A stretch of 64,000 nt of DNA from a virus, in the IMG/VR virus record IMGVR_UViG_3300045988_179398, positions 1-64,000 of that record, one strand, 5' to 3'. Both the position numbers and the translations under genes were made by a program. The notes under the pieces were generated by a model, which worked only from the letters and a program-made list of their open reading frames with translations, ran no database searches and was not told the origin of the DNA. Below are positions 3,209-33,297 of this stretch, one piece after another. Numbering within the stretch: position 1 is the stretch's first letter; the number at the start of each line of letters is the position of its first letter.

Positions 3209-3703
3209 ATGAAATTCGAAGAATGCAAAATTGGCGATATCGTCACACCTAAAACAGATAAAATAAAAACTTATTGCTTTCGCGGTGGAACCTCTTATAT
3301 CGCATTGGCAAAAGAATTTATAATAACCGAACTCAATCGCGCTACAAAGACTGTGGATATAACTTCTACAGATCCAAAAAACGATACAGTATGCCTATTT
3401 GTCTATCCGTCATGTCTTAACCCCGCCAACTCTGACAAATTCTCAATGTCCGAAGCGCTTCATGGCAAAATAATAACGCCCCCGCAAACGCCAGATTACA
3501 AATTAGACTTCGAGGTACGCCGCGAGAAAAACGAGCTTTCGGCTTATTATCACGGTGTCAAACTCGCGACCGTGCGCTGCCACCCAGACGACACTTACGA
3601 CGAGGAGTTCGGGCTTCACCTTTTACTCCGCCGCGCGTGCCTGAAACTCAAAGACGAACACACGGTGGTCGAGACGGTCGAAGAGCTTTTGCAAAAACCG
3701 TAA
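3209..3703 (+). CDS. hypothetical protein (164 aa), moron-like single gene
   Basis: Track ORF with AAGGAGG 6 nt upstream and its own consensus promoter. No family recognised. Confidence 0.85.
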   Translation: MKFEECKIGDIVTPKTDKIKTYCFRGGTSYIALAKEFIITELNRATKTVDITSTDPKNDTVCLFVYPSCLNPANSDKFSMSEALHGKIITPPQTPDYKLDFEVRREKNELSAYYHGVKLATVRCHPDDTYDEEFGLHLLLRRACLKLKDEHTVVETVEELLQKP

Positions 3704-3774: not shown

Positions 3775-3875
3775 GACTTTGCATGGAAACGGTTGAAAGA
3801 CAACGGTTTGCAATCTTAATCCTTTTAAGGGTTTGGTCAAAGAGTCTATAAAATGAATATGAGGAGGTGATAAGT

Positions 3876-4988
3876 ATGTTAAGAACCTACAAATATAGAT
3901 TATATCCAAATAAACAGCAAGAAATACTGTTACAAAAAACATTTGGATGTTGCAGATTTGTGTATAATCAAACTTTGGATTACAGGAAGAAATTATATGA
4001 AAACGAAAACAAAAGTATGAATAAATTTTCTTGTAATCAATATGTAAATCAAGTTCTTAAAAAGGAGTTTGAATGGTTAAAAGAAGTAGACAAATTCTCT
4101 TTAACTAATTCCGTTTGGAATATGGACGCTGCTTATCAGAACTTCTTTGTATTACATAGCGGTTATCCTAAGTTTAAGAGCAAACGAGATAATCATAAAT
4201 CTTACAAAACAGATTTTACAAATAATAATATAGCGGTTTCGTTTAAAAGAAATAAAGTCAAACTACCAAAACTTAAATGGGTAAAAGCAAAACTACACCG
4301 AGAATTTGTTGGTAAAATTAAATCAGCTAATATTTCACAGGAACCGAGTGGTAAGTATTTTATTTCTATATTAGTAGATGAGATCTATAATGAAACACCT
4401 TCAAGGGTCGATAGTAAAGTTGGAATTGATTTAGGTATAAAAGATTTACTTATCACTTCAAACGGAGATAAATTCGAAAATATTCACACTCTTAAAAAAT
4501 ATGAAAATAAGCTTATAAAACAACAGCAAAGATTATCTCGAAAAGTCAAGGGCTCAAATAACCACAATAAGCAAAAGATTAAAGTTGCAAGATCACACGA
4601 AAAAATTCGTAATATCAGATTAGATTACTTACATAAAATCACTCACAAACTTATTAACGAAAATCAAGTAATAGTTAGTGAGGATTTGAATGTAGGTAAA
4701 ATGATGGAAGAACATAATCTTGCAAAACAAATTCAGGATTGCGGTTGGTACGAATTAACACGACAATTGCAATATAAAGCAGATTGGAATAATAGACAAT
4801 ATATTAAAATTGGCAGATATGTTCCAAGTAGTCAAACTTGCAATTGTTGCGGATATATAAATCCAGAAGTTAAAAATCTATCTGTTAGAAAGTGGATCTG
4901 CCCTGAATGTGGAACAAAACACGATAGAGATATAAACGCTGCTAAAAATATTTTAGCAGAAGGGTTAAAACAATTGACAAAAGCATAA
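3876..4988 (+). CDS. tnpB: TnpB (OrfB) RNA-guided endonuclease of the IS200/IS605 family
   Basis: N-terminal MLRTYKYRLYPNKQQ. RuvC-like VGIDLGIKD and VSEDLNV. C-terminal CNCCG...CPECG zinc finger followed by HDRDINAAKNI. ATG 3876 preferred (GAGGAGG 8 nt upstream) over the track's GTG 3867. Confidence 0.9.
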   Translation: MLRTYKYRLYPNKQQEILLQKTFGCCRFVYNQTLDYRKKLYENENKSMNKFSCNQYVNQVLKKEFEWLKEVDKFSLTNSVWNMDAAYQNFFVLHSGYPKFKSKRDNHKSYKTDFTNNNIAVSFKRNKVKLPKLKWVKAKLHREFVGKIKSANISQEPSGKYFISILVDEIYNETPSRVDSKVGIDLGIKDLLITSNGDKFENIHTLKKYENKLIKQQQRLSRKVKGSNNHNKQKIKVARSHEKIRNIRLDYLHKITHKLINENQVIVSEDLNVGKMMEEHNLAKQIQDCGWYELTRQLQYKADWNNRQYIKIGRYVPSSQTCNCCGYINPEVKNLSVRKWICPECGTKHDRDINAAKNILAEGLKQLTKA

Positions 4989-9522: not shown

Positions 9523-10093
9523 TTTTATTTATTTCCTTTTCTTTTATTTCTTTTTCGTTTTTTACTTTTAATTTTTCAGCCAACCCACACGGGTAAAACT
9601 CTGTGCAAGTATATCCGCGATAAACGCAGTTCGGGACAAGTAACCCTTTGAATTCGGGGTTCACTTCTTCCACCTGTCTGCATATTTCCGCCACAACCTG
9701 TCGCGTTTCAGGCGAAGCCTGTGTGCATAAACGCTTACGGGCGATTACCATCAATTCTTGGGCATTCATTGCCCAGCACATATCTACGGGTTGATTTTGC
9801 GGCGCTTCCCCACGGTCGTAATTCGATTGGCGGTCATTTCTTTGCGTTTTAACAAACGGCGTTGCATGAACGTGTCGGCATAAATGAACGCTTACCCAAT
9901 ATGAGATATTCGTAATCCTGAATACGAATTGCAACGTTCTTATCGGGCTGTGTTCTGCCGCGAGTATTTTGTGTTTCCATTCAGCTGTTGGGAGCTTATC
10001 GCTGTCTTTCCCGACCGTGACCAATGTGCATTTTTTGCACAAAAGCCAATCTTCGTCGGTCGGGCGCTTTAATATTTCGACTTTAAAGTCCAT
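9515..10093 (-). CDS. thyX: ThyX-like (flavin-dependent thymidylate synthase fold) protein with a non-canonical signature
   Basis: AEHSPIRTLQFVFRITNISYWVSVHLCRHVHATPFVKTQRN aligns with the ThyX motif RHRxxSxxxxSxRY but reads RHVxxTxxxxTxRN. The downstream segment NAQELMVIARKRLCTQASPETR is also ThyX-like. Only 192 aa. Confidence 0.7.
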   Translation of the reverse strand: MDFKVEILKRPTDEDWLLCKKCTLVTVGKDSDKLPTAEWKHKILAAEHSPIRTLQFVFRITNISYWVSVHLCRHVHATPFVKTQRNDRQSNYDRGEAPQNQPVDMCWAMNAQELMVIARKRLCTQASPETRQVVAEICRQVEEVNPEFKGLLVPNCVYRGYTCTEFYPCGLAEKLKVKNEKEIKEKEINKND

Positions 10094-11076
10094 CAGTACA
10101 CCTCATCTGCAAGAGATTTTATTTTTGGTTTCTCTATACCATATTGTTCGAATAAATCTATTTGCGGAGCATATTCTCCAAAGTATTTTGCTTCTGCCTC
10201 TAAACGAGCTTTTATAGCTTCATCCTTTTCTTTAAATCGTTTATGAAGTTTATAATCATCATCTATTTTTAACGTCGCCATCCACAATGAACGTTCTTTA
10301 CACCAATGAACGCCGATAATTCCAGAAGTGTTTGTGCATTTTATTCCTTTATTGAAATTATTTTCTCTTTGCGAGCACTTGCGCAAATTGTTCCGACGGT
10401 TATTTAATTCATTTCTATCTATGTGATCGTAATTTGAAAAACCAAGATATACATGTTGCCTTATCTTTTTCCCGTTTACAACCCCGCTTAACCTTTTCAT
10501 ATTGGTCCATTCTGTATTTTCAATCCAATAAATATCTTTTACTTTTTCATAATCTTCTAAATCAATATAAAACGGTGTTCCTTTTTGCGTATATCCAACA
10601 ACATAATTTTCATGTATTTCATATTTATTTCTTTTTCTACGCTGTTCTCGTTCTTCTTTTGCTAAACAACCACAAGATAATCTACTTCCATATAAAATAC
10701 TTCCGCCAGATAATTCAAATTGTTTTTTGTTTCCACATCGGCATTCACACATCCACATCCAATTATTTTGCTTATTTTGTTTTGTGCGATAAATTACTTT
10801 AATACGGCTTCTAGGAATTCCGTGTTCCCACATTTTCCAACCCGTAATATCCTTAAAATAACGATTTTCTTTTTTATAACATCCGCAACTTATGTTATCC
10901 TCGTGTCTTAAATCATATGAGGATTTAATAACCTCTTTACCACATTCACATAAACACTTCCATTTTGTGACGTGACCACCTTTTGGTGAAATATAAGTCG
11001 GTGCTCTTTCTATTACGGTAAGTCTCCCGAATTTTCGTCCAGTCAAATCTTTTAATGCCATTTTAATTAACTCCAT
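10093..11076 (-). CDS. free-standing HNH homing-type endonuclease with an AP2-like DNA-binding domain
   Basis: DHIDRNELNNRRNNLRKCSQRENN (HNH) followed by GIIGVHWCKERSLWMATLKIDD...AEAKYFGEYA (AP2-like). N-terminal repeats of W.C.C.CG...SCGC. An alternative start lies at 11061. Confidence 0.8.
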   Translation of the reverse strand: MELIKMALKDLTGRKFGRLTVIERAPTYISPKGGHVTKWKCLCECGKEVIKSSYDLRHEDNISCGCYKKENRYFKDITGWKMWEHGIPRSRIKVIYRTKQNKQNNWMWMCECRCGNKKQFELSGGSILYGSRLSCGCLAKEEREQRRKRNKYEIHENYVVGYTQKGTPFYIDLEDYEKVKDIYWIENTEWTNMKRLSGVVNGKKIRQHVYLGFSNYDHIDRNELNNRRNNLRKCSQRENNFNKGIKCTNTSGIIGVHWCKERSLWMATLKIDDDYKLHKRFKEKDEAIKARLEAEAKYFGEYAPQIDLFEQYGIEKPKIKSLADEVY

Positions 11077-11802: not shown

Positions 11803-12489
11803 TCACAACAACTCGCTTATATCGGTTATAATTTCATCAACGATCCCGAGTTCAAGTTGTTCTTCGCCATTTATATACCATTCGGATTTCTTTTTCTTTT
11901 TGAGCAATTCTTTCGAAATTTTAGTCCTATTGAGAACACGAGCGTTTAAGGTCTCCAGCTGTTTAGGATATTGCGCTGTTTGCGACTGTATCTGTTCGGC
12001 TGTTCCAGAAACACCTGCTGAACCAGAATGATATAATGCCTTCGAATTTTTGAGGGCAAATCTTTTATGTCCACTAATCAAAATATCAAATCCTGCGGAG
12101 AGCGCAATTCCCATGTTATAAGTATAAACGGGCGTCTTTGAAATCTCGATTATGTCTGCAATATGAAAAATTTCCTCGACTCCGCCGCCGCAAGTATATA
12201 TAAACAATTTAATCGGTTTGCGTGATTCGATCGGAATATTTTTTTCATTATCTTCCCTATTCCACGCCAAAATCATTTTGGTAATAGGAATAGCTGTAGT
12301 TTCATCAACCAAGTCATCGAGCCATACGGTTCTGTTTTTTAACCCGTCGTAATACATATAGAGATCGGGGTTGGGCAACTTCGGATCTTCATCCATGCGC
12401 GTAGCATAATCCATATTGAGATTAGCGACACTTAAAAACAAAGAATCCATATCTTTTGGAATAAAGTCTTCGATATGTTTTTTAGCCAT
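11803..12489 (-). CDS. ClpP-family serine protease-like protein
   Basis: IYTCGGGVEE, GIALSAGFDILISGHKRFALKNSKALYHSGS. Compare the ClpP patterns INSPGGSV, G.AAS.G and IHQP. Confidence 0.7.
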   Translation of the reverse strand: MAKKHIEDFIPKDMDSLFLSVANLNMDYATRMDEDPKLPNPDLYMYYDGLKNRTVWLDDLVDETTAIPITKMILAWNREDNEKNIPIESRKPIKLFIYTCGGGVEEIFHIADIIEISKTPVYTYNMGIALSAGFDILISGHKRFALKNSKALYHSGSAGVSGTAEQIQSQTAQYPKQLETLNARVLNRTKISKELLKKKKKSEWYINGEEQLELGIVDEIITDISELL

Positions 12490-12501
12490 ATTTTCTCCTT
12501 T

Positions 12502-12554
12502 GACGATTCTTAATCGTCTAACAGCATTATAACATACATATCATAGATTGTCAA
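12502..12554 (-). promoter_or_regulatory. sigma70/SigA-type promoter (perfect consensus) plus a leader hairpin
   Basis: Minus strand reads TTGACA (rc 12549-12554), 17-nt spacer ending in TGT, TATAAT (rc 12526-12531). The leader hairpin GACGATT-CTT-AATCGTC lies at 12502-12518, before the SD of the ClpP-like gene. Confidence 0.8.
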
Positions 12555-12627
12555 CTGAAATTACATACAAAATTTTAAAAATATTTTTATTTTTGTTGCT
12601 TTTGCAATCACACATTTTTAATAATTA

Positions 12628-12636
12628 TGTTACAAT
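12628..12636 (+). promoter_or_regulatory. extended -10 promoter candidate (TGT-TACAAT)
   Basis: TGTTACAAT at 12628-12636. No good -35. It faces the ORF-free structured region. Confidence 0.4.
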
Positions 12637-12642
12637 GCCCCC

Positions 12643-13010
12643 GAAACTGAATAGGTATCAGCGGACGCGCCACCGCTTCAACAACAGGACTGCCACAAGA
12701 TACTGTCGCCACACACCGACATATTTTGCGTAAGAGGATCGTGGACACCAAACAAAACCTCAATAAAAAAGACGGTGGGCTTAGGAAGGCGAAGAAGAGA
12801 GCGCTTACCTCGATAAAGACGTTATGGATTCGCGTGTAACGAGAGGTATGACGATGTGAAATCATTGTTTATATGTGTGTTATAGCAGAACGGAAACTCA
12901 AGCAGGGGAAGTTTGTGAAAAGGGTATAATGTTGTCCCATTACCGCATGGGAGCATTATACCCAAAACACAGAACCATATTTCTCGCAGGGGAAGGTTTG
13001 TGTTCATATT
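12643..13010 (+). ncRNA. candidate large structured ncRNA or regulatory element (strand and ends uncertain)
   Basis: No SD-led ORF on either strand and more GC-rich than its flanks. Many helices, including a perfect 10-bp stem GGGTATAATG/CATTATACCC (12922-12963) flanked by two similar stem-loops whose loops carry GCAGGGGAAG. The last one is followed by a T-rich run. Confidence 0.45.
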
Positions 13011-13055
13011 ATTTCTTATATTTTTTACATAGTTTTCATATTTAATAAAGTTTTT

Positions 13056-13082
13056 GGGTGTAATTAGGGTGGTTTGGGTGGG
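13056..13082 (+). other. G-tract cluster / GGGTG iteron-like repeats in an AT-rich spacer
   Basis: GGG-N8-GGG-N6-GGG-N1-GGG. TGGGTG, AGGGTG and TGGGTG are spaced 9-11 nt apart. Confidence 0.4.
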
Positions 13083-13150
13083 TAAAGTGTAGTTTATTTT
13101 GAATAAATATAAAAATATATATTTTTTGTGTATAATTTATACAAGTTTAA

Positions 13151-13179
13151 TTGACAATATAAATATTCTATGTTATAAT
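13151..13179 (+). promoter_or_regulatory. sigma70/SigA-type promoter (perfect consensus)
   Basis: TTGACA (13151-13156), 17-nt spacer ending in TGT, TATAAT (13174-13179). Heads the rightward gene block. Confidence 0.8.
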
Positions 13180-13199
13180 AAAGTTGTAAGTTAGAAAAT

Positions 13200-13820
13200 A
13201 TGTATTCCAACAAGGAGGAAAACGATGACGTGAAAGTATTTTTAGATTGTGATGATACGATTATAGATTCTTCCAAATGTATTATCAATTTATTAAATAA
13301 GAAAAACGGAACAAATAAAACAATTAAGGATTTAAAAGATTTCCATTATCTCTCAATTGACAAAACTTTAACAAATAATGATGTGATTGAATTATTTGAA
13401 TCTGACGACTTCTGGGACACGGTTCATTATAGCCAAGAATTTTTAAGATATAACCGATTCTTAGATAATAATTTTGAAGTTGAAATCGTAAGTTGTGGAA
13501 CAAGGTTAAATTTGGAGAAAAAAGAAAAATATCTGAAAGATTTGGGTTATAAATTCACAGGCGTTTTAATCGATAATGATATGAATTTATGCAAAAGGCA
13601 TATAAATATGCAGGGTGGAATTCAAATCGATGATAATATACAGAGTATTGAAAATACAAACGCCGCAATAAAAATTCTTTTTCAAGGTGGTAATAATTTT
13701 CCGTGGAATAGGGTTAAACCAAATGTAGATAATTTGTATGTTGCTCAAACATGGGAAGAAGTTTATCAGATTTTAGAATTTTTTAAGAAAAATCCAGAAT
13801 TTGTTTATAAAGGATATTGA
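13200..13820 (+). CDS. HAD-superfamily phosphatase, 5'(3')-deoxyribonucleotidase-like
   Basis: Motif I VFLDCDDTIIDS (DxDxT). The start is either ATG 13200 or in-frame GTG 13230, which is better placed after AAGGAGG at 13212-13218. Confidence 0.65.
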   Translation: MYSNKEENDDVKVFLDCDDTIIDSSKCIINLLNKKNGTNKTIKDLKDFHYLSIDKTLTNNDVIELFESDDFWDTVHYSQEFLRYNRFLDNNFEVEIVSCGTRLNLEKKEKYLKDLGYKFTGVLIDNDMNLCKRHINMQGGIQIDDNIQSIENTNAAIKILFQGGNNFPWNRVKPNVDNLYVAQTWEEVYQILEFFKKNPEFVYKGY

Positions 13821-14358: not shown

Positions 14359-17169
14359 ATGCCAGTTTTGCAAAACCTGTATCAGGTTTATAAATTACCA
14401 TCGAGTTTTATCGTGGAAAACAATTTAAAAATCGATAATTATACTCGAAAACGAGCAATCCAAGACGGCAATCTTGTAAGCGTCGGCGATAATATGGTAT
14501 TTTATAAAATTCGGGATTATTATGGGGATACAAGAAGCCACAAAGAGATTTTTGACGCGGTGCAAAATCTTAGAACAACTCTTCGCATTTGTAAAAGAGA
14601 AGGTAAGATACTCGAAGGGCACATTGTAAATCAACAAATTCAAGACATTCTTTTTGTGAAAGATATAATCGTTGTGGTTTGCGAGAAGAAATCTGAATAT
14701 CTAAAAATCGGAACAAAAGGTTTTGAAGTAAACGGAGTTAGATACACGAGGCTTTGTGCAGGTGCAGGTAATTTGCGCCGCAACAACGCAATTTATGTAA
14801 ACGAGAAGCTTTACTCTTATCTTTATGAAGTGTTTATGTGCGGGCTCGCCGACAGACTCAAAGAAGCGGTTCTCCCGAAGCTCGGTGCATATTTTGCCCT
14901 TTCTTTCTCATCGGTTTTGTGGGTTAGAACACCGCGAGTTTGCGTGATAAAAGATTTCGAAACGACGCTCCCCAATCAAAATGTTGATTTCATTTGCCGA
15001 AAGGAAGAATTGGACGAAGAGGGTAAACCCCGAACGAAACATTACATTGAAAAGCGTGTGATGGATTTAACGCTCAATAGTGCGGACGGACAGGGTTTAG
15101 TAGATCCCGAATTCAGTAAATTGTGGGCGGAGGATATGCAGCTCGATTACGTACCTTCGTCGTTTGTTGTAAGAAGCTCATTTGTAAAAGGAAATCTCGT
15201 TCCGTTTGATTTTAAGGCTTACGCAGCGGAACATGGAATAGACAAAATTAAAGACAGATGGGGCGTTGAATACCCGTTGAATGAAATTGACGTTTTATTA
15301 AGCGAGTCGCAGTTCAAAGAATATAAGGAATATTCGAGCTGGCAGGAGTATTTGTATTATTTCAACAAATACAAGCTCCGTTGGGGCGTCGCCCGTTATA
15401 ATAAGAAACACGATGACGAATACGTCCTCGCGAATTATCAATACATTCAGGCGCTCACCCTTTCAAAGGAAGATATTCACGGGTTAATTCAACCGACAAT
15501 TGATTGGATAAAAAATATTTGTTCGGGCGATGATTTGTATAGTCTTCTTTTTATGTTCGGAGGCAAAAGCGAAGACATAACTTACGAAAGAATGTACTCT
15601 TCGGCGCAATCGACGTTTATGAAGGCGATCGTGAAAAACAACGAAATGCTGAAAGACGCGCACGTTCAACGGAAGATTTACAAAAACATTGTCGAGTGTA
15701 TAAACCGCGCGAAGATTGGCAAGATTTGGGTGAGAGGAAATTACCAGTTTATGATTTCCGACCCGATCGCGCAGTGCCAGTCGGCGTTGGGATTACCAGT
15801 TAAAGGGGAAATTCCAGCAAAAAATATTTATTCCGAATTTTGGAATAATAGAGGGTTAACTGGGAAGGAAGTTGATTGTTGCAGAAGCCCTCAAATAGAT
15901 ACAAGTGAACACACTCCTTCAGTTGTTTATAATTCTGAAAACGCATATAAATGGTATCAATATATAAAAAGTGGAGTTATTTTTAGTATTTATGATACTG
16001 CAACACTTTTTTTGTCAGATGCGGACTTCGATGGGGATTTGTGTTTCAGCTCGGATAATGAATATTTTTTAAAAGGCAGTGCTCGTGTTGAAAACGTTAT
16101 AACCTATGAAAAAGGGATTGCCGTTAAAGAAAAAATAAGCAGGCAAAGTTTTGTAAAAAAAGATCTTATGGGGTTTGGCACGGCAGTAGGAAGTTTTTCT
16201 AATACGGCAACAATTCTTTATTCAATGATCGGGATTTTTAATAAACCCGAACAGGAGGAACAAAGAAAAGAGTTGAAAACGAGAATTAAACTTCTTCGCG
16301 AATACGTCGGGCAGGAAATCGACAGAGCAAAACTCGGAATAAAGCAGCAAAAACTACCAGATGAGTGGAAAAAGCACGTTAAAGTAAACGAAGACGACAC
16401 GGACGAAGTAAAGGCGGAAAAATATAAACATAACTCGATGGTTATTTGTAAAAAACCGTATTTCTTCCGTTATCTTTATCCCGAACTCAACAAAAAATTC
16501 AAGCAGTTCGAAAACGGTTATAACATCGTTTCAAAAGATATGTTCGGTATTAAGTTCAAAAAACTTCTCGCAAAGCCCGATAAAACCGAGGCAGAGAAGA
16601 TGCTTGTTAGAAGATACCAAAAATACTCTCCGCTAATCGTTTCAAATTGCACGATGAATATTTTATGCAAAGAGTTTGAAAACGTTGATTTCGATATAAA
16701 GTTCGGGAAGTCTAACACAAATCTTCTCAATCTTTATCAAAACGAAGGATTCGAGGCGGATACAAAAATTCTTGCGAAATTCCGAAACGCTTATCGGAAA
16801 TATAACAACAAAAAAACGGTTCACGTGCTCGATGACGTTTTTGAAAACAAAGACGAAGACGATATAAAGAGTATTTATAATCTCGTTCTCGATACGGCGA
16901 AGCAGGAAATTCAGGAAGAAATTTTCGGGTTCGGGTTAAAACCCAAGGAAATGCTCTTTTACGTTGGTCAGCTCGCAAAGGAATACACGAATTTTAATTG
17001 GAGCTTCGTTTGGGACATAATGGATTCAATCGTTCTTGAAGGCGTTGAACAAGGAAAAAGTTACGCACCAGTTCGTTCGGAAGACGGAGAAGAATATCTC
17101 GGCGAGAAGTTCGCGCTTAAAGAAGTTGTGAAGAAAGCCGAAGGGGAGGTTTATACGAATGTTGAATGA
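14359..17169 (+). CDS. single-subunit two-barrel RNA polymerase-like protein (YonO / eukaryotic-type RdRP-like)
   Basis: LSDADFDGDLCF (aa 552-563, nt 16018-16038 for DADFDGD) matches the beta-prime NADFDGD metal-binding motif. CRSPQI lies upstream (cf NRAPTL). AGAGNLRRNNAIYV resembles the RdRP SxSQLR segment. 936 aa. Confidence 0.6.
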   Translation: MPVLQNLYQVYKLPSSFIVENNLKIDNYTRKRAIQDGNLVSVGDNMVFYKIRDYYGDTRSHKEIFDAVQNLRTTLRICKREGKILEGHIVNQQIQDILFVKDIIVVVCEKKSEYLKIGTKGFEVNGVRYTRLCAGAGNLRRNNAIYVNEKLYSYLYEVFMCGLADRLKEAVLPKLGAYFALSFSSVLWVRTPRVCVIKDFETTLPNQNVDFICRKEELDEEGKPRTKHYIEKRVMDLTLNSADGQGLVDPEFSKLWAEDMQLDYVPSSFVVRSSFVKGNLVPFDFKAYAAEHGIDKIKDRWGVEYPLNEIDVLLSESQFKEYKEYSSWQEYLYYFNKYKLRWGVARYNKKHDDEYVLANYQYIQALTLSKEDIHGLIQPTIDWIKNICSGDDLYSLLFMFGGKSEDITYERMYSSAQSTFMKAIVKNNEMLKDAHVQRKIYKNIVECINRAKIGKIWVRGNYQFMISDPIAQCQSALGLPVKGEIPAKNIYSEFWNNRGLTGKEVDCCRSPQIDTSEHTPSVVYNSENAYKWYQYIKSGVIFSIYDTATLFLSDADFDGDLCFSSDNEYFLKGSARVENVITYEKGIAVKEKISRQSFVKKDLMGFGTAVGSFSNTATILYSMIGIFNKPEQEEQRKELKTRIKLLREYVGQEIDRAKLGIKQQKLPDEWKKHVKVNEDDTDEVKAEKYKHNSMVICKKPYFFRYLYPELNKKFKQFENGYNIVSKDMFGIKFKKLLAKPDKTEAEKMLVRRYQKYSPLIVSNCTMNILCKEFENVDFDIKFGKSNTNLLNLYQNEGFEADTKILAKFRNAYRKYNNKKTVHVLDDVFENKDEDDIKSIYNLVLDTAKQEIQEEIFGFGLKPKEMLFYVGQLAKEYTNFNWSFVWDIMDSIVLEGVEQGKSYAPVRSEDGEEYLGEKFALKEVVKKAEGEVYTNVE

Positions 17170-19873: not shown

Positions 19874-21046
19874 ATGAGTAGTAAAAAAAATAATATTACC
19901 AAAGAGAACTTATATGATTTGTATATAATACAAGACAAAACTATTGAAGAATGTGCGGAATATTTTAATTGTAGCAAATCTGTTATAAGAAGAAGGATAG
20001 CACAATATAATATTAAATTAAAGGGGCATTCTTATACGAGAAGACATATAATACCAAAAGATAAGCTTTATAAATTTTTTATAAGAGAAAACCATTCGTT
20101 AAAAGAAACCGCCAGCAAATTTGGGTGTTCTGGCGCGACAATATTACTAAGATGTAAAGAATATGGTATAAGAAAACTGGGAAATATAGTTGATAAAGAT
20201 GAATTATATCAGTATTATATTGTAGAGAATCATACCAAGAAACAATGTAATCAATTTTTTAATTGTTATGTCGACCCGTATCTTCAAAAATATGGAATAT
20301 TAAAACCAAAAGATAAAATCAATGAGAATACGTGGCATGAAAAATACCATGTTGATGTTGATTGTTTATATGATTTATATATAGCTAAAAATCATACGGT
20401 TGATGAATGTGCGGAATTTTTTAAATGTCCAAAATCTAAAATAGAAATAACATTGCGAAAGAACAATATACACAAGGTTAATACTATTCCAATACCAAAA
20501 GATGAACTATATAATTATTACATAGAAGAAAATCATACAGCCTATGAAACGGCTGAATTTTTTAATACCACCGTTTCAAAGGTGTTTTATTGGGCAAATA
20601 AAGTTTATGGAATAAAGAAAGATGTCTATAAAGCAAATGAGTTAACGCAGAAGAAAATGCGTGAAAACAAAACTTTTAATAGTTCCAAACAAGAAGATTT
20701 ATTTTATGAATATTTAGTAGGCAAATATGGAAAAGATGATATAATCAGACAATACAAGGAAGAAAGATATCCGTTTAATTGTGATTTTTATATAAAATCG
20801 AAAGATATTTTTGTAGAGTTAAATCTTAATTGGACGCATGGCAGAGAACCATTTGATTTTACAAATCTAAATCATATACAAAAAGCTAAGATATTAGAGG
20901 AAAGATCGGTTTATTCTGATTTTTATAAGATTGCTTTAAATGTTTGGACTGAACGCGACCCGAACAAAATTAAAACAGCAAAATTGAATAATCTTAATTA
21001 CGTTATGTATTATAATGTTAAAGATTTGTATGATGGCAGAGTGTAG
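19874..21046 (+). CDS. multi-HTH protein with C-terminal Vsr/DUF559-like PD-(D/E)XK nuclease domain (homing-endonuclease-like), paralog A
   Basis: Five tandem units of about 40 aa (xxLYxxYIxxNxTxxExAxxFxxSxSxI). C-terminus EDLFYEYL...FNCDFYIKSKDIFVELNLNWTHG. Confidence 0.65.
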   Translation: MSSKKNNITKENLYDLYIIQDKTIEECAEYFNCSKSVIRRRIAQYNIKLKGHSYTRRHIIPKDKLYKFFIRENHSLKETASKFGCSGATILLRCKEYGIRKLGNIVDKDELYQYYIVENHTKKQCNQFFNCYVDPYLQKYGILKPKDKINENTWHEKYHVDVDCLYDLYIAKNHTVDECAEFFKCPKSKIEITLRKNNIHKVNTIPIPKDELYNYYIEENHTAYETAEFFNTTVSKVFYWANKVYGIKKDVYKANELTQKKMRENKTFNSSKQEDLFYEYLVGKYGKDDIIRQYKEERYPFNCDFYIKSKDIFVELNLNWTHGREPFDFTNLNHIQKAKILEERSVYSDFYKIALNVWTERDPNKIKTAKLNNLNYVMYYNVKDLYDGRV

Positions 21047-31368: not shown

Positions 31369-33297
31369 ATGAGAAATTTTTCGAAAGAAGAGTTATATGA
31401 ATTATATATAACTCAAAACAAATCAAAAAGAGAAGTAGCTGAAATATTGCATACTAACGAGAAAACTTTGGGCGATTATTTTAAAAAATATGGAATAAAA
31501 AAATCAAAAGAAGATGTCGTTAGAGCAAGAGAATTGACATGCTTGAAAAATTTTGGTTCAACAAACCAAATGAAAAATATTGAAATCGCGCAAGAACTTC
31601 GTTCCAAACAAATAGATAGTGGTAAAATTAAAGATATACCATACGAAGAGCTTTATGATGTTTTGGTTAATAAAAAAATGCTTGTAACCAATGCGGCGAA
31701 TTTTTTTCATACTTCAATAAGCACCATAAAGAGACTTGCAAAAGAAAACGGGATTGAAATTTGTAAAGAAGAATTAAAAGCCGTTGATAAAGACGAGTTG
31801 GAAAATTATTATATTACAGAAAAACATACTCGCGAAGAATGTGCAGAGTATTTTGGAGTATCTTATTCTCGTATTAAAACGTTTTTGAAAAAGTATAAAA
31901 TCGAAAAAAGTAAAGATGAGATTTTTGAAAACATTAAACGTGGGCATAAGCGTAAAACTGGATATGAATATGCTTTGCAAAACCCCGAATCGATAAAAAA
32001 ACAAAAGGCTACTTATAAAAATAGAACCGAAGAGGAAAAGTCGGAGACGATTGAAAAACGCAAAAATACCTGTATGGATAGATTTGGTGCGAATAATCCC
32101 TTGCGTTCAGAAGATATAAAAGAAAAAGCGTTTGCTACTAATATAGAAAGATATGGATATAAAACATCAATTCAAAATCCAGAAATTCGTAAAAAAGCGG
32201 AAGATACTTTATTTGATCGGTTTGGAGTCAGGAACCCGTCTTTAGTTCCCGAGTTTAAACAAAAAAGAGAAAACACCATGCGAGAAAGATTTGGTGTTTG
32301 TAATTACGGAGAGATTGTCTTATCGGAAGATATTAGGAATTTACTTAACGATAAAGATAAATTCAAAAAATATGTTTTAGATAATAAGTTATCGACGACG
32401 TATGATATTGCGGAAAGTATAGGATGTTCAATTACAACTATTACAAACAGAATTCACGAATATAATTTAGAAGATTTGGTGAATAGGTCACAATCGCATT
32501 TTGAGACGGAAGTCAATCGTATTCTGACCGATTGGAATGTTAGACATTATAAAACAAGACAAATTTTAAGCAGTAAGCAAGAAATAGATTTTTATTGTCC
32601 GAATGAAGCGGTTGGTTTTGAATTTAATGGTAACTGGCCTCATTGTTCGATTAATAAAGATAAAAAATACCACATGGACAAATCATTGGAAGCGCAAGAA
32701 AAGAATGTAAGATTTGTCCACATATATGAATACGAATGGTGTAATCCTCAAAAACAGCCAATAATATTATCTTTAATGCGTGGAGCGCTTGGTCTTTTTG
32801 ATAAAAAAATATATGCAAGGAATTGTAAAATAAAAGAGGTTGGGACAAAAGAGTATTTCGACTTCTGTAATCAAAATCATACACAGGGTTATAGGCAAGC
32901 AAGGATTATTTATGGGCTTTATTTCAATGATGAATTAGTTCAGATAATGAGTTTTTCTCATAATGATAAATATGAATGGGAGATAATTCGTGAATGTTCT
33001 AAAATTAATACTCAAGTAATTGGCGGTAACTCAAAGCTGTTTAAATATTTTATAAAAACGCAAAATCCAAACAGTATTTTTAGTTATTGCGATTTTAATA
33101 AATTTAATGGCAAAGGCTATGAGTTATTGGGTATGAAATTTATAGGATATACTGGTCCAGATATGAAATGGTATTTGAAAGGCAATATAGTTATAAATAG
33201 AAGTCCAAGTAAAAACAAAGAACTCAAAGAAAAAGCTATTGCCCAAATTTGGGGCGCTGGTTCTAAAAAGTATTTGTGGATAAAACCGCAAGAATAA
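31369..33297 (+). CDS. multi-HTH protein with PD-(D/E)XK nuclease core and extra C-terminal domain (homing-endonuclease-like), paralog B
   Basis: Three N-terminal units like those of ORF 19874. Repeated ...RFG..NP... modules. ETEVNRIL...QEIDFYCPNEAVGFEFNGNWPH. C-terminal KIYARNCKIKEVGTKEYFDFCNQNHTQGY domain. Confidence 0.65.
   Translation: MRNFSKEELYELYITQNKSKREVAEILHTNEKTLGDYFKKYGIKKSKEDVVRARELTCLKNFGSTNQMKNIEIAQELRSKQIDSGKIKDIPYEELYDVLVNKKMLVTNAANFFHTSISTIKRLAKENGIEICKEELKAVDKDELENYYITEKHTREECAEYFGVSYSRIKTFLKKYKIEKSKDEIFENIKRGHKRKTGYEYALQNPESIKKQKATYKNRTEEEKSETIEKRKNTCMDRFGANNPLRSEDIKEKAFATNIERYGYKTSIQNPEIRKKAEDTLFDRFGVRNPSLVPEFKQKRENTMRERFGVCNYGEIVLSEDIRNLLNDKDKFKKYVLDNKLSTTYDIAESIGCSITTITNRIHEYNLEDLVNRSQSHFETEVNRILTDWNVRHYKTRQILSSKQEIDFYCPNEAVGFEFNGNWPHCSINKDKKYHMDKSLEAQEKNVRFVHIYEYEWCNPQKQPIILSLMRGALGLFDKKIYARNCKIKEVGTKEYFDFCNQNHTQGYRQARIIYGLYFNDELVQIMSFSHNDKYEWEIIRECSKINTQVIGGNSKLFKYFIKTQNPNSIFSYCDFNKFNGKGYELLGMKFIGYTGPDMKWYLKGNIVINRSPSKNKELKEKAIAQIWGAGSKKYLWIKPQE

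What the first reader, a model, noticed from the sequence alone, without database searches (positions are those of the whole stretch)
12637..13010. ORF-free, densely structured 370-nt element between the divergent gene blocks: candidate large ncRNA
The 0.7-kb gap between the leftward and rightward blocks has no SD-led ORF on either strand. Its centre is visibly more GC-rich than the AT-rich flanks. An extended -10 (TGTTACAAT, 12628-36) points into it. Visible helices include GCGG-ACGCGCCA-CCGC enclosed by GGUAUC/GAUACU (12656-12702), GUCG-CCACACAC-CGAC (12706-12720), AGGAAGGCG/GCGCUUACCU (12783-12810), UACCUCG/CGAGAGGUA (12806-12848) and ACGAUG-UGAAAU-CAUUGU (12851-12868). A 3' module follows in which a perfect hairpin, GGGUAUAAUG...CAUUAUACCC (12922-12963), is flanked by two similar stem-loops (about 12887-12917 and 12967-13003). 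Both have the form CA-G-AAC...GUU-UG and both present GCAGGGGAAG in the loop. The second ends in a U-rich run, like a terminator. I could not match the element to a known class by eye. Large phage-associated RNAs (ROOL- or GOLLD-like) and an origin or packaging element are the main alternatives.
Basis: partly seen in the sequence, partly recalled or inferred. Interest (0 to 1): 0.65.

Follow-up and report, generated by a model that had tools for sequence, protein, structure and literature searches.

The report
New structured non-coding phage RNA
The gap between the two divergent gene blocks of this large gut phage holds a previously undescribed non-coding RNA gene of about 365 nt, whose fold is conserved by compensatory mutations across related phages and whose job is still unknown.

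Summary
Window 12643-13005 is an ORF-free block with its own sigma-70-type extended -10 promoter (12607-12636) and a U-rich tail. It is the best-conserved stretch of the locus: 93-98% identity, against 70-90% in the neighbouring genes and 55-63% in the flanking spacers.

I found 13 distinct copies in gut-metagenome phage contigs. All lie between a ClpP-like gene and an NT5C-like gene, upstream of a YonO-type RNA polymerase gene. Three copies are a divergent subtype.

On a curated alignment, 66 base pairs are 97.4% canonical. Nineteen pairs show changes on both sides, and 0 of 500 shuffles reach that number. The fold has a 5'-3' closing helix, a long-range helix, four covarying hairpins and an almost invariant 50-nt core. 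The + strand is the folded strand.

No Rfam family matches (ROOL, GOLLD, raiA, T-box and the rest). Neither do the phage or plasmid collections. Indels break every small ORF.

The downstream G-rich box is a separate module.

Function is inferred only. My best guess is a stand-alone early RNA that acts in trans. The rivals are a transcript of a c2-type replication origin and a cis-acting leader or terminator switch.

The parts
12526..12554 (-). P_L: consensus sigma-70-type promoter (TTGACA-17-TATAAT with TG) for the leftward ClpP-like/PhoH block. It is context, not part of the RNA.
12607..12636 (+). P_nc: promoter of the RNA. In the window it reads ATCACA-18-TACAAT with an extended -10 (TGTTACAAT, 12628-36). 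Relatives read TTGAC(A/G)-17-TGTTATAAT at the same place, with a variable spacer.
12643..12662 (+). Inferred transcription start (G12643, 7 nt after the -10) and the 5' leader. It is invariant in the close subtype but differs in the divergent subtype. The discriminator 12637-42 is variable.
12663..12668 (+). P1 5' strand (GGACGC). It pairs with 13000-13005 and closes the whole fold.
   Evidence: C-G at 12666/13002 becomes G-C in L117 and G-U in L121.
12670..12678 (+). P2 5' strand (CCACCGCUU). It pairs with 12769-12778, with A12772 bulged.
   Evidence: Changes are one-sided only (G-C to G-U).
12694..12730 (+). P3: a 14-bp hairpin with the conserved loop CCWYACAC (12709-12716). It shows the heaviest covariation, 8 of 14 pairs.
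12732..12781 (+). Nearly invariant core, about 95% identical even between subtypes. It contains P4 (12734-37/12758-61), P4a (12742-44/12748-50), the A/CA-rich single strands and the P2 3' strand.
12783..12810 (+). P5 region: an RGGAAGG motif and a purine-rich loop (GAAGAAGAGAG). The pairing differs between subtypes and is unresolved. L001 and L056 carry a 42-43-nt extra hairpin after 12809.
12820..12841 (+). P6: the 7-bp hairpin CGUUAUG/UGUAACG with loop GAUUCGCG. Four pairs covary.
12845..12875 (+). P7: a long irregular hairpin with core ACGAUG-UGAAAU-CAUUGU (12851-12868). Three pairs covary.
12886..12917 (+). SL-A: CAGAAC...GUUUGUG around GAAACUC-loop-GGGGAA. Its 3' half is a lineage-specific copy of the SL-B 3' half.
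12922..12963 (+). P9: the 'perfect hairpin', with an outer stem of 11 bp and an inner stem of 6 bp. Three pairs covary and the tip is variable.
12968..13005 (+). SL-B (CACAGAACC...GGUUUGUG, 12968-13002), overlapping the P1 3' strand (GUGUUC, 13000-13005). Block conservation ends here.
13006..13026 (+). U-rich tail. Its sequence varies but it is always T-rich. The preceding stem is strengthened in some relatives, for example a 12-bp perfect stem in L017 and L057. This is the inferred 3' end.
13046..13085 (+). A separate conserved module: a -10-like TTTTTGGGTRTAAT followed by the G-rich GGGTGGTTTGGGTGGG. It is not part of the RNA family.
   Evidence: It is absent after the RNA in L117, L121 and L119, and present without the RNA in L120 and L123.
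13151..13179 (+). P_R: consensus promoter (TTGACA-17-TATAAT with TG) of the rightward NT5C-like/dNMP kinase/YonO block. It is context, not part of the RNA.

Best explanation
Window 12643 to about 13010 (+ strand) is a stand-alone gene for a structured non-coding RNA of about 365 nt.

**Shown**
- It has its own sigma-A/sigma-70-type promoter with an extended -10.
- The functional unit runs exactly from the predicted start to a stem followed by a U-rich tail.
- It is not protein-coding.
- Its fold is kept by selection in two diverged subtypes. The fold comprises a 5'-3' closing helix P1, a long-range helix P2, hairpins P3, P6, P7 and P9, and a nearly invariant 50-nt core holding the invariant helices P4 and P4a and A/CA-rich single strands.
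- It occurs only in one lineage of roughly 130-145-kb gut phages that encode a YonO-type RNA polymerase.
- It always lies between the ClpP-like and NT5C-like genes.
- It is missing from some relatives with the same gene order, so it appears to be an accessory element.

**Inferred**
- Host RNA polymerase transcribes it immediately after infection, and transcription ends at the U-rich tail.
- The folded RNA then acts in trans as RNA. It would be a scaffold or decoy for a protein, or a self-associating RNA.
- The likely interaction surfaces are the invariant core and three RRGGAAR motifs. Two of these motifs sit on twin stem-loops (SL-A, SL-B) whose sequences co-evolve within each lineage.
- It does not act by antisense pairing to the phage's own genes in this window.

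Confidence that it is a genuine structured ncRNA gene is about 0.9. Confidence that it works in trans as described is about 0.45.
For: **Transcription unit**
- The promoter is conserved in place, with a variable spacer and discriminator.
- Conservation begins at G12643 and ends at 13005.
- The element is 93-98% identical, against 70-90% for flanking genes and 55-63% for spacers.

**Not coding**
- A 1-nt deletion, 1-nt indels and 42/43-nt insertions shift every ORF.
- In my own count of the alignment columns listed and the peptides, substitutions in the 32-37-codon ORF are 3 synonymous, 7 non-synonymous and one stop-to-stop.

**Structure**
- RNAalifold on 11 sequences predicts 66 pairs, 20 of them with compensatory changes.
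- On the curated alignment of 13 sequences, 97.4% of cells are paired. Nineteen pairs and 43 cells show changes on both sides, and 0 of 500 shuffles reach this. Slid controls give at most 4 such pairs.
- The single-sequence fold of L117 gives P1, P2, P3, P4, P6, P7 and P9 on its own, at z = -3.34.

**Strand**
- Alifold energy is -92.5 on the + strand and -74.1 on the - strand. Every copy folds better on the + strand.
- 99.2% of cells pair on the + strand, against 84% for the mirrored structure on the - strand. There are 133 G-U cells and 5 A-C cells.

**Accessory status**
- The element is absent from L120, L122, L123, L124, L129 and L130, although dNMP kinase and YonO-like genes follow the NT5C-like gene in all six. 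The leftward ClpP/PhoH genes are seen in L122-L124 only.

**No antisense target**
- No complementary site lies elsewhere in the 64-kb window.

**Twin stem-loops**
- Their 3' halves are the same within a lineage but differ between lineages. L116 carries three coordinated changes.
Against: - There is no expression data, so the start, the end and the stability of the RNA are all inferred.
- The U-rich tail is an imperfect terminator in the window. The terminator scan did not call it.
- The P1 3' strand overlaps the SL-B 3' strand, so the 3' module has competing folds.
- The position is also what a replication origin or a cis-acting leader would show: between divergent blocks, and between a first and a second rightward promoter.
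- No partner protein or target has been identified.
- The curated alignment was fitted to the structure, which inflates the pairing percentage.
- Only 13 distinct sequences are known. They fall into two main subtypes, so many of the compensatory cells trace back to a few events.
Confidence: 0.45

Rival explanations
1. **Origin transcript.** The element is the non-coding primer or activator RNA of a transcription-dependent replication origin. It would resemble PE1-T of Lactococcus c2-type (Ceduovirus) phages, and more distantly ColE1 RNA II. Transcription from the first rightward promoter through a structured untranslated region would open or prime the origin in cis.
For: The layout matches the c2 origin.
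- It is a non-coding region between two divergent blocks, bounded by the first two promoters of one block.
- The untranslated transcript's sequence and structure matter for origin function.
- Each origin type is more than 90% identical within the type and unrelated between types (PMC7150918).
- The annotated c2 origin shows 361 nt between the -10 elements of EP1 and EP2. GC is 42-46% inside and 20-29% outside.

In the window, cumulative GC skew reaches its minimum at 12-13 kb. AT-rich stretches flank the element.
Against: - The element is missing from relatives with the same gene order, whereas an origin should be indispensable.
- The G-rich box and the AT-rich stretch that made an R-loop model attractive form an independent module. 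It is absent beside the RNA in L117, L121 and L119.
- GC skew follows gene orientation here. The + strand TnpB gene flips it at 4-5 kb, so skew is not independent evidence.
- There is no DnaA-box cluster and no similarity to the c2 origin or to plasmids.
- A fold closed by a 5'-3' helix, with a discrete U-rich end, is not what a primer needs.
Confidence: 0.2
2. **Cis-acting leader.** The RNA is a large leader that decides whether polymerases starting at P_nc stop at the U-rich tail or read on into the rightward operon. It would work through alternative pairings of four segments: SL-A 5', SL-A 3', SL-B 5' and SL-B 3'/P1. That makes it a terminator/antiterminator switch, or a put-like RNA that modifies the polymerase.
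For: - The four segments can pair either as two hairpins or as one rod, with similar energies in all three lineages.
- L116 keeps both schemes through three coordinated changes.
- The P1 3' strand overlaps the last stem directly before the U-run.
- In read-through transcripts of the close subtype, the 3' arm of P9 can pair with the downstream box. The G-to-A and C-to-U changes in L017 and L057 are coordinated.
Against: - A consensus promoter (P_R) lies between the RNA and the first gene in every copy. Regulated read-through would therefore add little.
- The box is not a feature of the family.
- No ligand, tRNA or protein signature was found, and no Rfam riboswitch or T-box family matches.
Confidence: 0.15
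3. **Small protein.** The region encodes a small basic protein, 32-37 aa (M(RKRIV)DTKQNLNKKDGGLRKAKKRALTSIKTLWIRV, 12726/12741-12839). The nucleotide conservation would then reflect coding plus regulation.
For: - The ORF is open in 11 of 13 copies.
- AAGAGGA precedes the GTG.
- In L001 the 42-nt insert is in frame, and the stop changes from TAA to TGA.
Against: - The SD-to-start spacing is only 2 nt.
- Substitutions are mostly non-synonymous and radical, for example L to P and L to Y/H.
- L056 truncates the ORF.
- The ORF covers under a third of the conserved block.
- The same substitutions are explained as compensatory pairs in P6.
Confidence: 0.04
4. **DNA-level site only.** The element is a DNA site such as iterons, a packaging signal or an operator cluster. 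Conservation would come from protein binding to double-stranded DNA, and any transcript would be incidental.
For: - The motif (A/T)4GGGTATAAT occurs three times in and after the element, and changes in concert in L017 and L057.
- The element contains palindromes.
Against: - The compensatory changes preserve pairing, not sequence.
- Pairing is strand-asymmetric, with many G-U pairs that would be C-A on the other strand.
- Helices with partners 100-340 nt apart covary (P1) or change only to G-U (P2).
- The terminase gene lies 9 kb away.
- Contig ends near the element fall at four different positions, so they are not a fixed genome end.
Confidence: 0.04

Closest known systems
PE1-T / origin region of Lactococcus c2-type (Ceduovirus) phages
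   Same: - A non-coding stretch of about 0.35 kb between two divergently transcribed blocks.
- It starts at the first promoter of one block and is followed by that block's second promoter.
- It is richer in GC than its AT-rich flanks.
- It is untranslated, and the sequence and structure of the transcript matter.
- It is highly conserved within a type.
   Different: - There is no sequence similarity.
- Origin function is untested here.
- Our element is absent from some relatives with the same gene order.
- It has a closed, covariation-supported multi-helix fold. I did not check whether that is documented for PE1-T.
- The host phages are roughly 140-kb phages that encode a YonO-type polymerase, not 22-kb prolate siphoviruses.
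ROOL and GOLLD (large structured RNAs common in phages and prophages; Rfam)
   Same: - A large, intricately folded, phage-borne non-coding RNA of unknown function, with conserved single-stranded cores.
- Duplicated, mutually complementary segments that could support self-association. This last point is inference.
   Different: - No covariance-model match, even at E <= 10.
- It is smaller, about 365 nt against roughly 580 and 800 nt (sizes from my own knowledge).
- No tRNA gene is found anywhere in the window.
- It is confined to one phage lineage.
ColE1 RNA II and other R-loop primers (T4 oriF/oriG, mitochondrial LSP/CSBII)
   Same: A promoter-driven, structured, untranslated RNA upstream of a G-rich and then an AT-rich stretch, in the close subtype only.
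   Different: - The G-rich box is an independent module, not linked to the RNA in the divergent subtype.
- No antisense promoter of any quality was found.
- There is no plasmid homology.
Four-segment transcription attenuators and HK022 put RNA
   Same: - Alternative 1:2/3:4 versus 2:3 pairings ending at a U-run.
- Twin stem-loops downstream of an early promoter.
   Different: - It is much larger.
- A strong promoter separates it from the operon.
- There is no leader peptide, tRNA-binding signature or ligand signature.
- Membership cannot be tested by sequence.

Membership tests
Any Rfam 15 family (ROOL, GOLLD, raiA, OLE, HEARO, 6S, T-box, riboswitches, ribozymes, phage pRNA and others) | The covariance-model score reaches the family's gathering threshold. 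| tested here: not met
   There were 0 hits over the whole window at gathering threshold. At E <= 10 on 12400-13300 the only hit is a chance preQ1-II match outside the element. Three homologous loci give no hit on the element.
Structured non-coding RNA (generic) | Base pairs are maintained by compensatory substitutions, beyond what shuffles and shifted controls give. | tested here: met
   19 pairs and 43 cells with changes on both sides, reached by 0 of 500 shuffles. Slid controls give at most 4 pairs. (uncurated MAFFT alignment plus RNAalifold): 20 of 66 pairs are compensatory.
Structured non-coding RNA (generic) | No conserved reading frame. | tested here: met
   Frame-shifting indels occur among the copies, and the substitution pattern is mostly non-synonymous.
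Structured non-coding RNA (generic) | A discrete transcript is detected. | not testable with these tools
   Only the promoter and the U-rich tail are inferred. No expression data are available.
c2-type (Ceduovirus) transcription-dependent phage origin | A non-coding region between divergent blocks, bounded by the first two promoters of one block. | tested here: met
   P_L lies at 12526-54 (-), P_nc at 12607-36 (+) and P_R at 13151-79 (+). Compare the c2 annotation and PMC7150918.
c2-type (Ceduovirus) transcription-dependent phage origin | The fragment supports autonomous plasmid replication in the host without phage proteins. | not testable with these tools
   This needs an experiment, and the host is unknown.
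c2-type (Ceduovirus) transcription-dependent phage origin | Present in every member of the phage group, possibly as alternative types of similar size. | tested here: not met
   L120, L122, L123, L124, L129 and L130 carry the NT5C-like, dNMP kinase and YonO-like genes but have no element. They have only short AT-rich spacers or other small hairpins.
Intrinsic (factor-independent) terminator at the 3' end | A GC-rich local hairpin immediately followed by a run of U. | tested here: inconclusive
   The scan does not call it in the window. The SL-B or P1 3' strand is followed by UUCAUAUUAUUUCUUAUAUUUUUU. L017 and L057 have a perfect 12-bp stem followed by UUUUAUUGUGUUUU.
Riboswitch or attenuator leader | It lies in the 5' UTR of the regulated gene with no promoter in between, and has mutually exclusive terminator and antiterminator folds. 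| tested here: not met
   Alternative folds do exist. However, a consensus promoter lies between the RNA and the first gene in all copies.

The most novel reading that the evidence does not exclude
This is a new class of large 'ornate' phage RNA whose function lies in its three-dimensional form. The closed P1-P9 architecture and the invariant core would form a catalytic or ligand- or protein-binding centre. The duplicated segments X-X'-[P9]-X-X', which co-evolve within each lineage, would drive a conformational switch or strand-swapped self-assembly into dimers or cages, as recently shown for ROOL, GOLLD and OLE. The phage would use it early in infection, for example against a host defence system.
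Probability: 0.15. Interest if true: 0.85.

Novelty: new variant of a known kind. Interest (0 to 1): 0.62.

Why it matters
Large, highly structured bacterial and phage RNAs with no assigned function are few: OLE, ROOL, GOLLD, raiA and a handful of others. Each one studied so far has revealed unexpected biology.

This one has several useful properties:
- It is compact, at about 365 nt.
- Its transcription unit is clearly delimited.
- Its fold is supported by covariation, with an almost invariant core.
- It comes in two subtypes.
- It has natural 'knock-outs', meaning close relatives that lack it.

Together these make it unusually tractable for structure probing, cryo-EM and genetics once a host is found. 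It also marks an uncultured lineage of roughly 140-kb gut phages that carry a YonO-type single-chain RNA polymerase.

If the origin reading is right instead, it would extend the RNA-dependent c2-type origin design to a very different group of phages.

Tried and rejected
**Searches that found nothing**
- Rfam at gathering and at permissive thresholds, on the window and on homologues: no family.
- blastn against 50,697 phage records and 72,556 plasmids: no match.
- tRNA/tmRNA scan: none.
- A second copy or a DGR-like variable repeat in the window: none.
- nhmmer and a covariance model of the 3' module on the 37 YonO-related IMG/VR loci whose YonO is 46-57% identical to the window's. A profile of both subtypes was also run on about 130 loci. 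Nothing turned up beyond the family.
- Pattern scans for the loops, the core and the 5' domain in IMG/VR: only the same contigs plus chance hits, for example L029 inside a gene.
- A DnaA-box cluster: none.
- Homology to the c2 origin or to the large gap upstream of the SPbeta-like YonO gene: none.

**Ideas considered and dropped**
- GC skew as origin evidence: rejected, because skew follows gene orientation.
- Pairing of the RNA with the downstream G-rich box, as an R-loop or attenuation mechanism. I first favoured this because of the coordinated changes in L017 and L057. I rejected it as a family feature once the divergent copies lacked the box and copies without the RNA carried it.
- Likeness of the box to the T-box sequence (AGGGUGGU): recalled from memory only, and the Rfam T-box model does not match.
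- CRISPR repeat, tracrRNA, omega-RNA, retron and pseudo-ToxI ideas: no repeat array, no reverse transcriptase and no adjacent nuclease. The TnpB gene is 8 kb away.
- Contig ends near the element as genome termini: rejected, because four contigs break at four different places.
Full report
**1. What is there**

The window is part of a large phage genome with 40% GC.
- A leftward block holds a ClpP-like protease (11803-12489), PhoH and an HNH endonuclease.
- A rightward block holds an NT5C-like nucleotidase (13200-13820), a dNMP kinase and a 936-aa protein.
- The 936-aa protein carries the DFDGD motif and matches YonO of SPbeta-like phages. It also matches 'RdRP'-annotated proteins of Enterocloster, Thomasclavelia and Clostridium phages.
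- The terminase and portal genes follow in the same rightward block.

The two blocks start from perfect sigma-70-type promoters at 12554-12526 (-) and 13151-13179 (+). The strong Shine-Dalgarno sequences and these promoters point to a Firmicutes host. One homologous contig sits in a MAG labelled Bacteroidaceae, which I regard as a doubtful bin.

Between the two promoters lies the reported element. It is GC-richer: 0.40-0.53, against 0.13-0.29 in the flanks. A third promoter with an extended -10, TGTTACAAT at 12628-36, precedes it.

**2. Is it more than chance?**

The + strand of 12637-13010 folds at -104.7 kcal/mol with z = -2.42. The - strand gives z = -0.86.

Homologues came from three sources:
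- Flanking-protein and DNA-pattern searches of IMG/VR, metagenome and GTDB contigs gave eight distinct close copies.
- A search with the NT5C-like protein, followed by contig look-ups, gave two more close copies (L114, L116).
- The same route gave three copies of a divergent subtype: L117/L118, L121 and L119.

In a multi-genome alignment, mean pairwise identity is 93-98% across 12700-12999. It is 70-90% in the neighbouring genes and 55-63% in the adjoining spacers.

Conservation switches on exactly at G12643, 7 nt after the -10 hexamer. The six bases in between differ in almost every copy. Conservation switches off at 13005, after which only T-richness is kept. The relatives carry TTGAC(A/G)-17-TGTTATAAT at the same position, with unrelated spacer sequence. 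This is the footprint of a transcription unit whose product, not its DNA, is under selection.

**3. Coding?**

No.
- Among the copies there are a 1-nt deletion at 12917-20 (L056) and single-base indels at 12654/55 and 12699.
- L001 and L056 carry a 42- or 43-nt insertion after 12809.
- These shift every ORF of 30 aa or more on both strands in at least one copy.
- The best candidate is a 32-37-codon ORF for a basic peptide. In my own count of the alignment columns listed and the peptides, it shows 3 synonymous, 7 non-synonymous and one stop-to-stop change.
- That ORF has a 2-nt SD-to-start spacing and is truncated in L056.

**4. Structure**

With the close copies alone, covariation is thin: 3 pairs. 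The divergent subtype changes that. RNAalifold on an uncurated MAFFT alignment of 11 sequences predicts 66 pairs, 20 of them with compensatory changes.

I then cut out the homologous blocks by anchors and placed indels by hand. I passed them through the aligner unchanged (A8) and counted a structure that I specified.
- 66 pairs, with 97.4% of 833 cells canonical.
- 19 pairs and 43 cells with changes on both sides. The shuffle mean is 8.0 ± 1.9, and 0 of 500 shuffles reach 19.
- Covariation score 0.221, against 0.126 for shuffles.
- Sliding the partners by 1-3 columns gives at most 4 such pairs and 35-51% pairing.

| Helix | Window coordinates | Evidence |
|---|---|---|
| P1 | 12663-68 / 13000-05 | Closes the 5' and 3' ends. 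C-G becomes G-C (L117) and G-U (L121) |
| P2 | 12670-78 / 12769-78 | A12772 bulged. Only G-C to G-U changes |
| P3 | 12694-12708 / 12717-30 | 8 covarying pairs. Conserved loop CCWYACAC |
| P4, P4a | within the core | Invariant, so uninformative |
| P6 | 12820-26 / 12835-41 | 4 covarying pairs |
| P7 | 12851-56 / 12863-68 | 3 covarying pairs |
| P9 | 12922-40 / 12947-63 | 3 covarying pairs |

The single-sequence MFE and centroid of L117 recover P1, P2, P3, P4, P6, P7 and P9 unaided, at z = -3.34. The curated alignment leans towards the structure by construction. The uncurated result and the L117 fold are the independent checks.

The core 12732-12781 is about 95% identical even between subtypes. 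It reads AGAGGAUCGUGGACACCAAACAAAACCUCAAUAAAAAAGACGGUGGGC.

**5. Strand**

- Alifold energy is -92.5 on the + strand and -74.1 on the - strand. Every copy is 7-23 kcal/mol more stable on the + strand.
- The + structure has 133 G-U cells and 5 A-C cells. The mirrored structure on the - strand would pair only 84% of cells.

**6. The 3' module**

SL-A (12886-12917), P9 and SL-B (12968-13002) can fold as three hairpins. Alternatively they form one rod in which the SL-A 3' strand pairs with the SL-B 5' strand and the SL-A 5' strand pairs with the SL-B 3' strand. Duplex energies are comparable in all three lineages.

The 3' halves of SL-A and SL-B are near-identical within a lineage but differ between lineages:

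| Lineage | Shared 3' half of SL-A and SL-B |
|---|---|
| Close subtype | GGAAGKUUUGUG |
| L117 | GGAAAAGUUG |
| L119 | GGAAAGGCGC |

L116 carries three coordinated changes: A to G in SL-A 5', U to C in SL-A 3' and A to G in SL-B 5'. This concerted evolution is unexplained. It fits a switch, a self-association interface, or two sites for one partner. The P1 3' strand overlaps the SL-B 3' strand by three bases, directly before the U-rich tail.

**7. The downstream box**

Bases 13046-13085 hold TTTTTGGGTRTAATT followed by GGGTGGTTTGGGTGGG. This box is conserved in the close subtype. Its first half is complementary to the 3' arm of P9, and L017 and L057 show coordinated changes there. I first read this as coupling between the RNA and the box.

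The coupling does not hold across the family.
- L117, L121 and L119 have the RNA but no box.
- L120 has a TTGACA-17-TATAAT promoter followed at once by GGGTGGTGGGCGGGCTTGGG, and no RNA.
- L123 has the box in inverted orientation.

The box is therefore a separate promoter-plus-G-rich module.

**8. Distribution**

All copies lie at the same locus. The ClpP-like gene is the left neighbour wherever the left flank was read. The element is absent from IMG/VR relatives whose YonO is 46-57% identical. It is also absent from six loci with the NT5C-like/dNMP kinase/YonO gene order: L120, L122, L123, L124, L129 and L130. It therefore behaves as an accessory cassette of one lineage.

**9. What it does (inference)**

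Three readings fit the anatomy.

(a) **A stand-alone early RNA that acts in trans, about 0.45.**
- It has its own promoter and a discrete end.
- It has a closed fold, an invariant core and accessory status.
- No antisense target lies in the window.

(b) **The untranslated transcript of a c2-type replication origin, about 0.2.**
- In Ceduoviruses the origin lies in the non-coding region between divergent blocks, bounded by PE1 and PE2.
- PE1 makes an untranslated transcript whose sequence and structure matter.
- Origin types are more than 90% identical within a type and unrelated between types (PMC7150918; c2 annotation and composition).
- The layout is strikingly similar here.
- Against it: the element is dispensable in close relatives, GC skew is confounded by gene orientation, and there is no homology.

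(c) **A cis-acting leader or terminator switch, about 0.15.**
- The alternative pairings support it.
- The consensus promoter P_R between the RNA and the first gene undermines it.

A small protein and a purely DNA-level site are each at about 0.04.

**10. Comparison with what is known**

By kind, this belongs with large phage-borne structured RNAs of unknown function, such as ROOL and GOLLD. It is not a member of either, because the covariance models do not match.

By position, it works like the PE1-T region of c2. One defining feature is met, one is not met, and the decisive one (autonomous replication) cannot be tested here.

I rate it a new RNA family. That makes it a new variant of a known kind.

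Noticed in passing
window 3867-4988 (+), with 3209-3703 upstream: An IS605-family TnpB gene (Pfam OrfB_IS605, Cas12f1-like TNB and HTH_OrfB_IS605 domains) sits in opposite orientation inside the leftward block. The 164-aa ORF upstream matches no family. GC skew flips locally here.
   Followed up: partly
L059 8689-9847 (also L060, L061, L062, L086). Equivalent to window 16005-16054, inside 14359-17169.: In several relatives the YonO-type polymerase gene is interrupted exactly within the catalytic DFDGD motif. The insert is about 1.16 kb and encodes a 265-aa protein with LAGLIDADG-like motifs. It gives a weak, sub-threshold group I intron hit (15.7 bits, E = 0.44). The window's copy is uninterrupted.
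   Followed up: partly
window 13046-13085; L120 2674-2720; L123 about 1865-1895 (inverted): A conserved module is shared by related phages with or without the RNA. It is a -10-like TATAAT followed at once by a G-rich run with four G-tracts, which could form a G-quadruplex. An extremely AT-rich stretch follows. It could be a special promoter or an origin-like element.
   Followed up: partly
L001 about 3573-3615 and L056 (after the equivalent of window 12809): A 42-43-nt insertion forms its own perfect 12-bp hairpin (CGAUGUUUUACC/GGUAAAACAUCG). It comes with matching changes in the flanking bases. It sits in a junction of the RNA, as a variable extra stem would.
   Followed up: partly
L122 about 2905-2925, L123 about 1750-1775, L124 about 2780-2805: Relatives that lack the RNA share a different small conserved hairpin in the same intergenic gap (ATTACTCACTACGTTCGTAAT), with a second perfect hairpin beside it (GAACGATAAATAAATTTATCGTTC). 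These could be another small RNA or a terminator.
   Followed up: no
L113 5240-6373 (Bacillus phage SPR): SPbeta-like phages also have a large non-coding gap, about 1.1 kb, at a divergent junction just upstream of the YonO operon. It is not similar in sequence to our element. Forrest et al. 2017 (PMC5467207) mention an unannotated ncRNA at the YonO-dependent late promoter of SPbeta.
   Followed up: partly
window 10093-11076 (-), 19874-21046 (+), 31369-33297 (+): The window contains three HNH or homing-endonuclease genes, which points to heavy traffic of mobile endonucleases in this phage lineage.
   Followed up: no
L023/L103, L003, L053, L056 (contig ends): Four independent assemblies break within or just after the element, each at a different position. 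The likely cause is that a near-identical segment shared by co-occurring strains tangles the assembly graph. One contig (IMGVR_UViG_3300045988_175117) has both its ends inside the element, with the two ends abutting.
   Followed up: partly
L058 (CAVKBM010000005.1): A copy of the locus lies in a MAG labelled Bacteroidaceae. Its promoters and Shine-Dalgarno sites are of Firmicutes type, so the binning or the host assignment looks doubtful.
   Followed up: no
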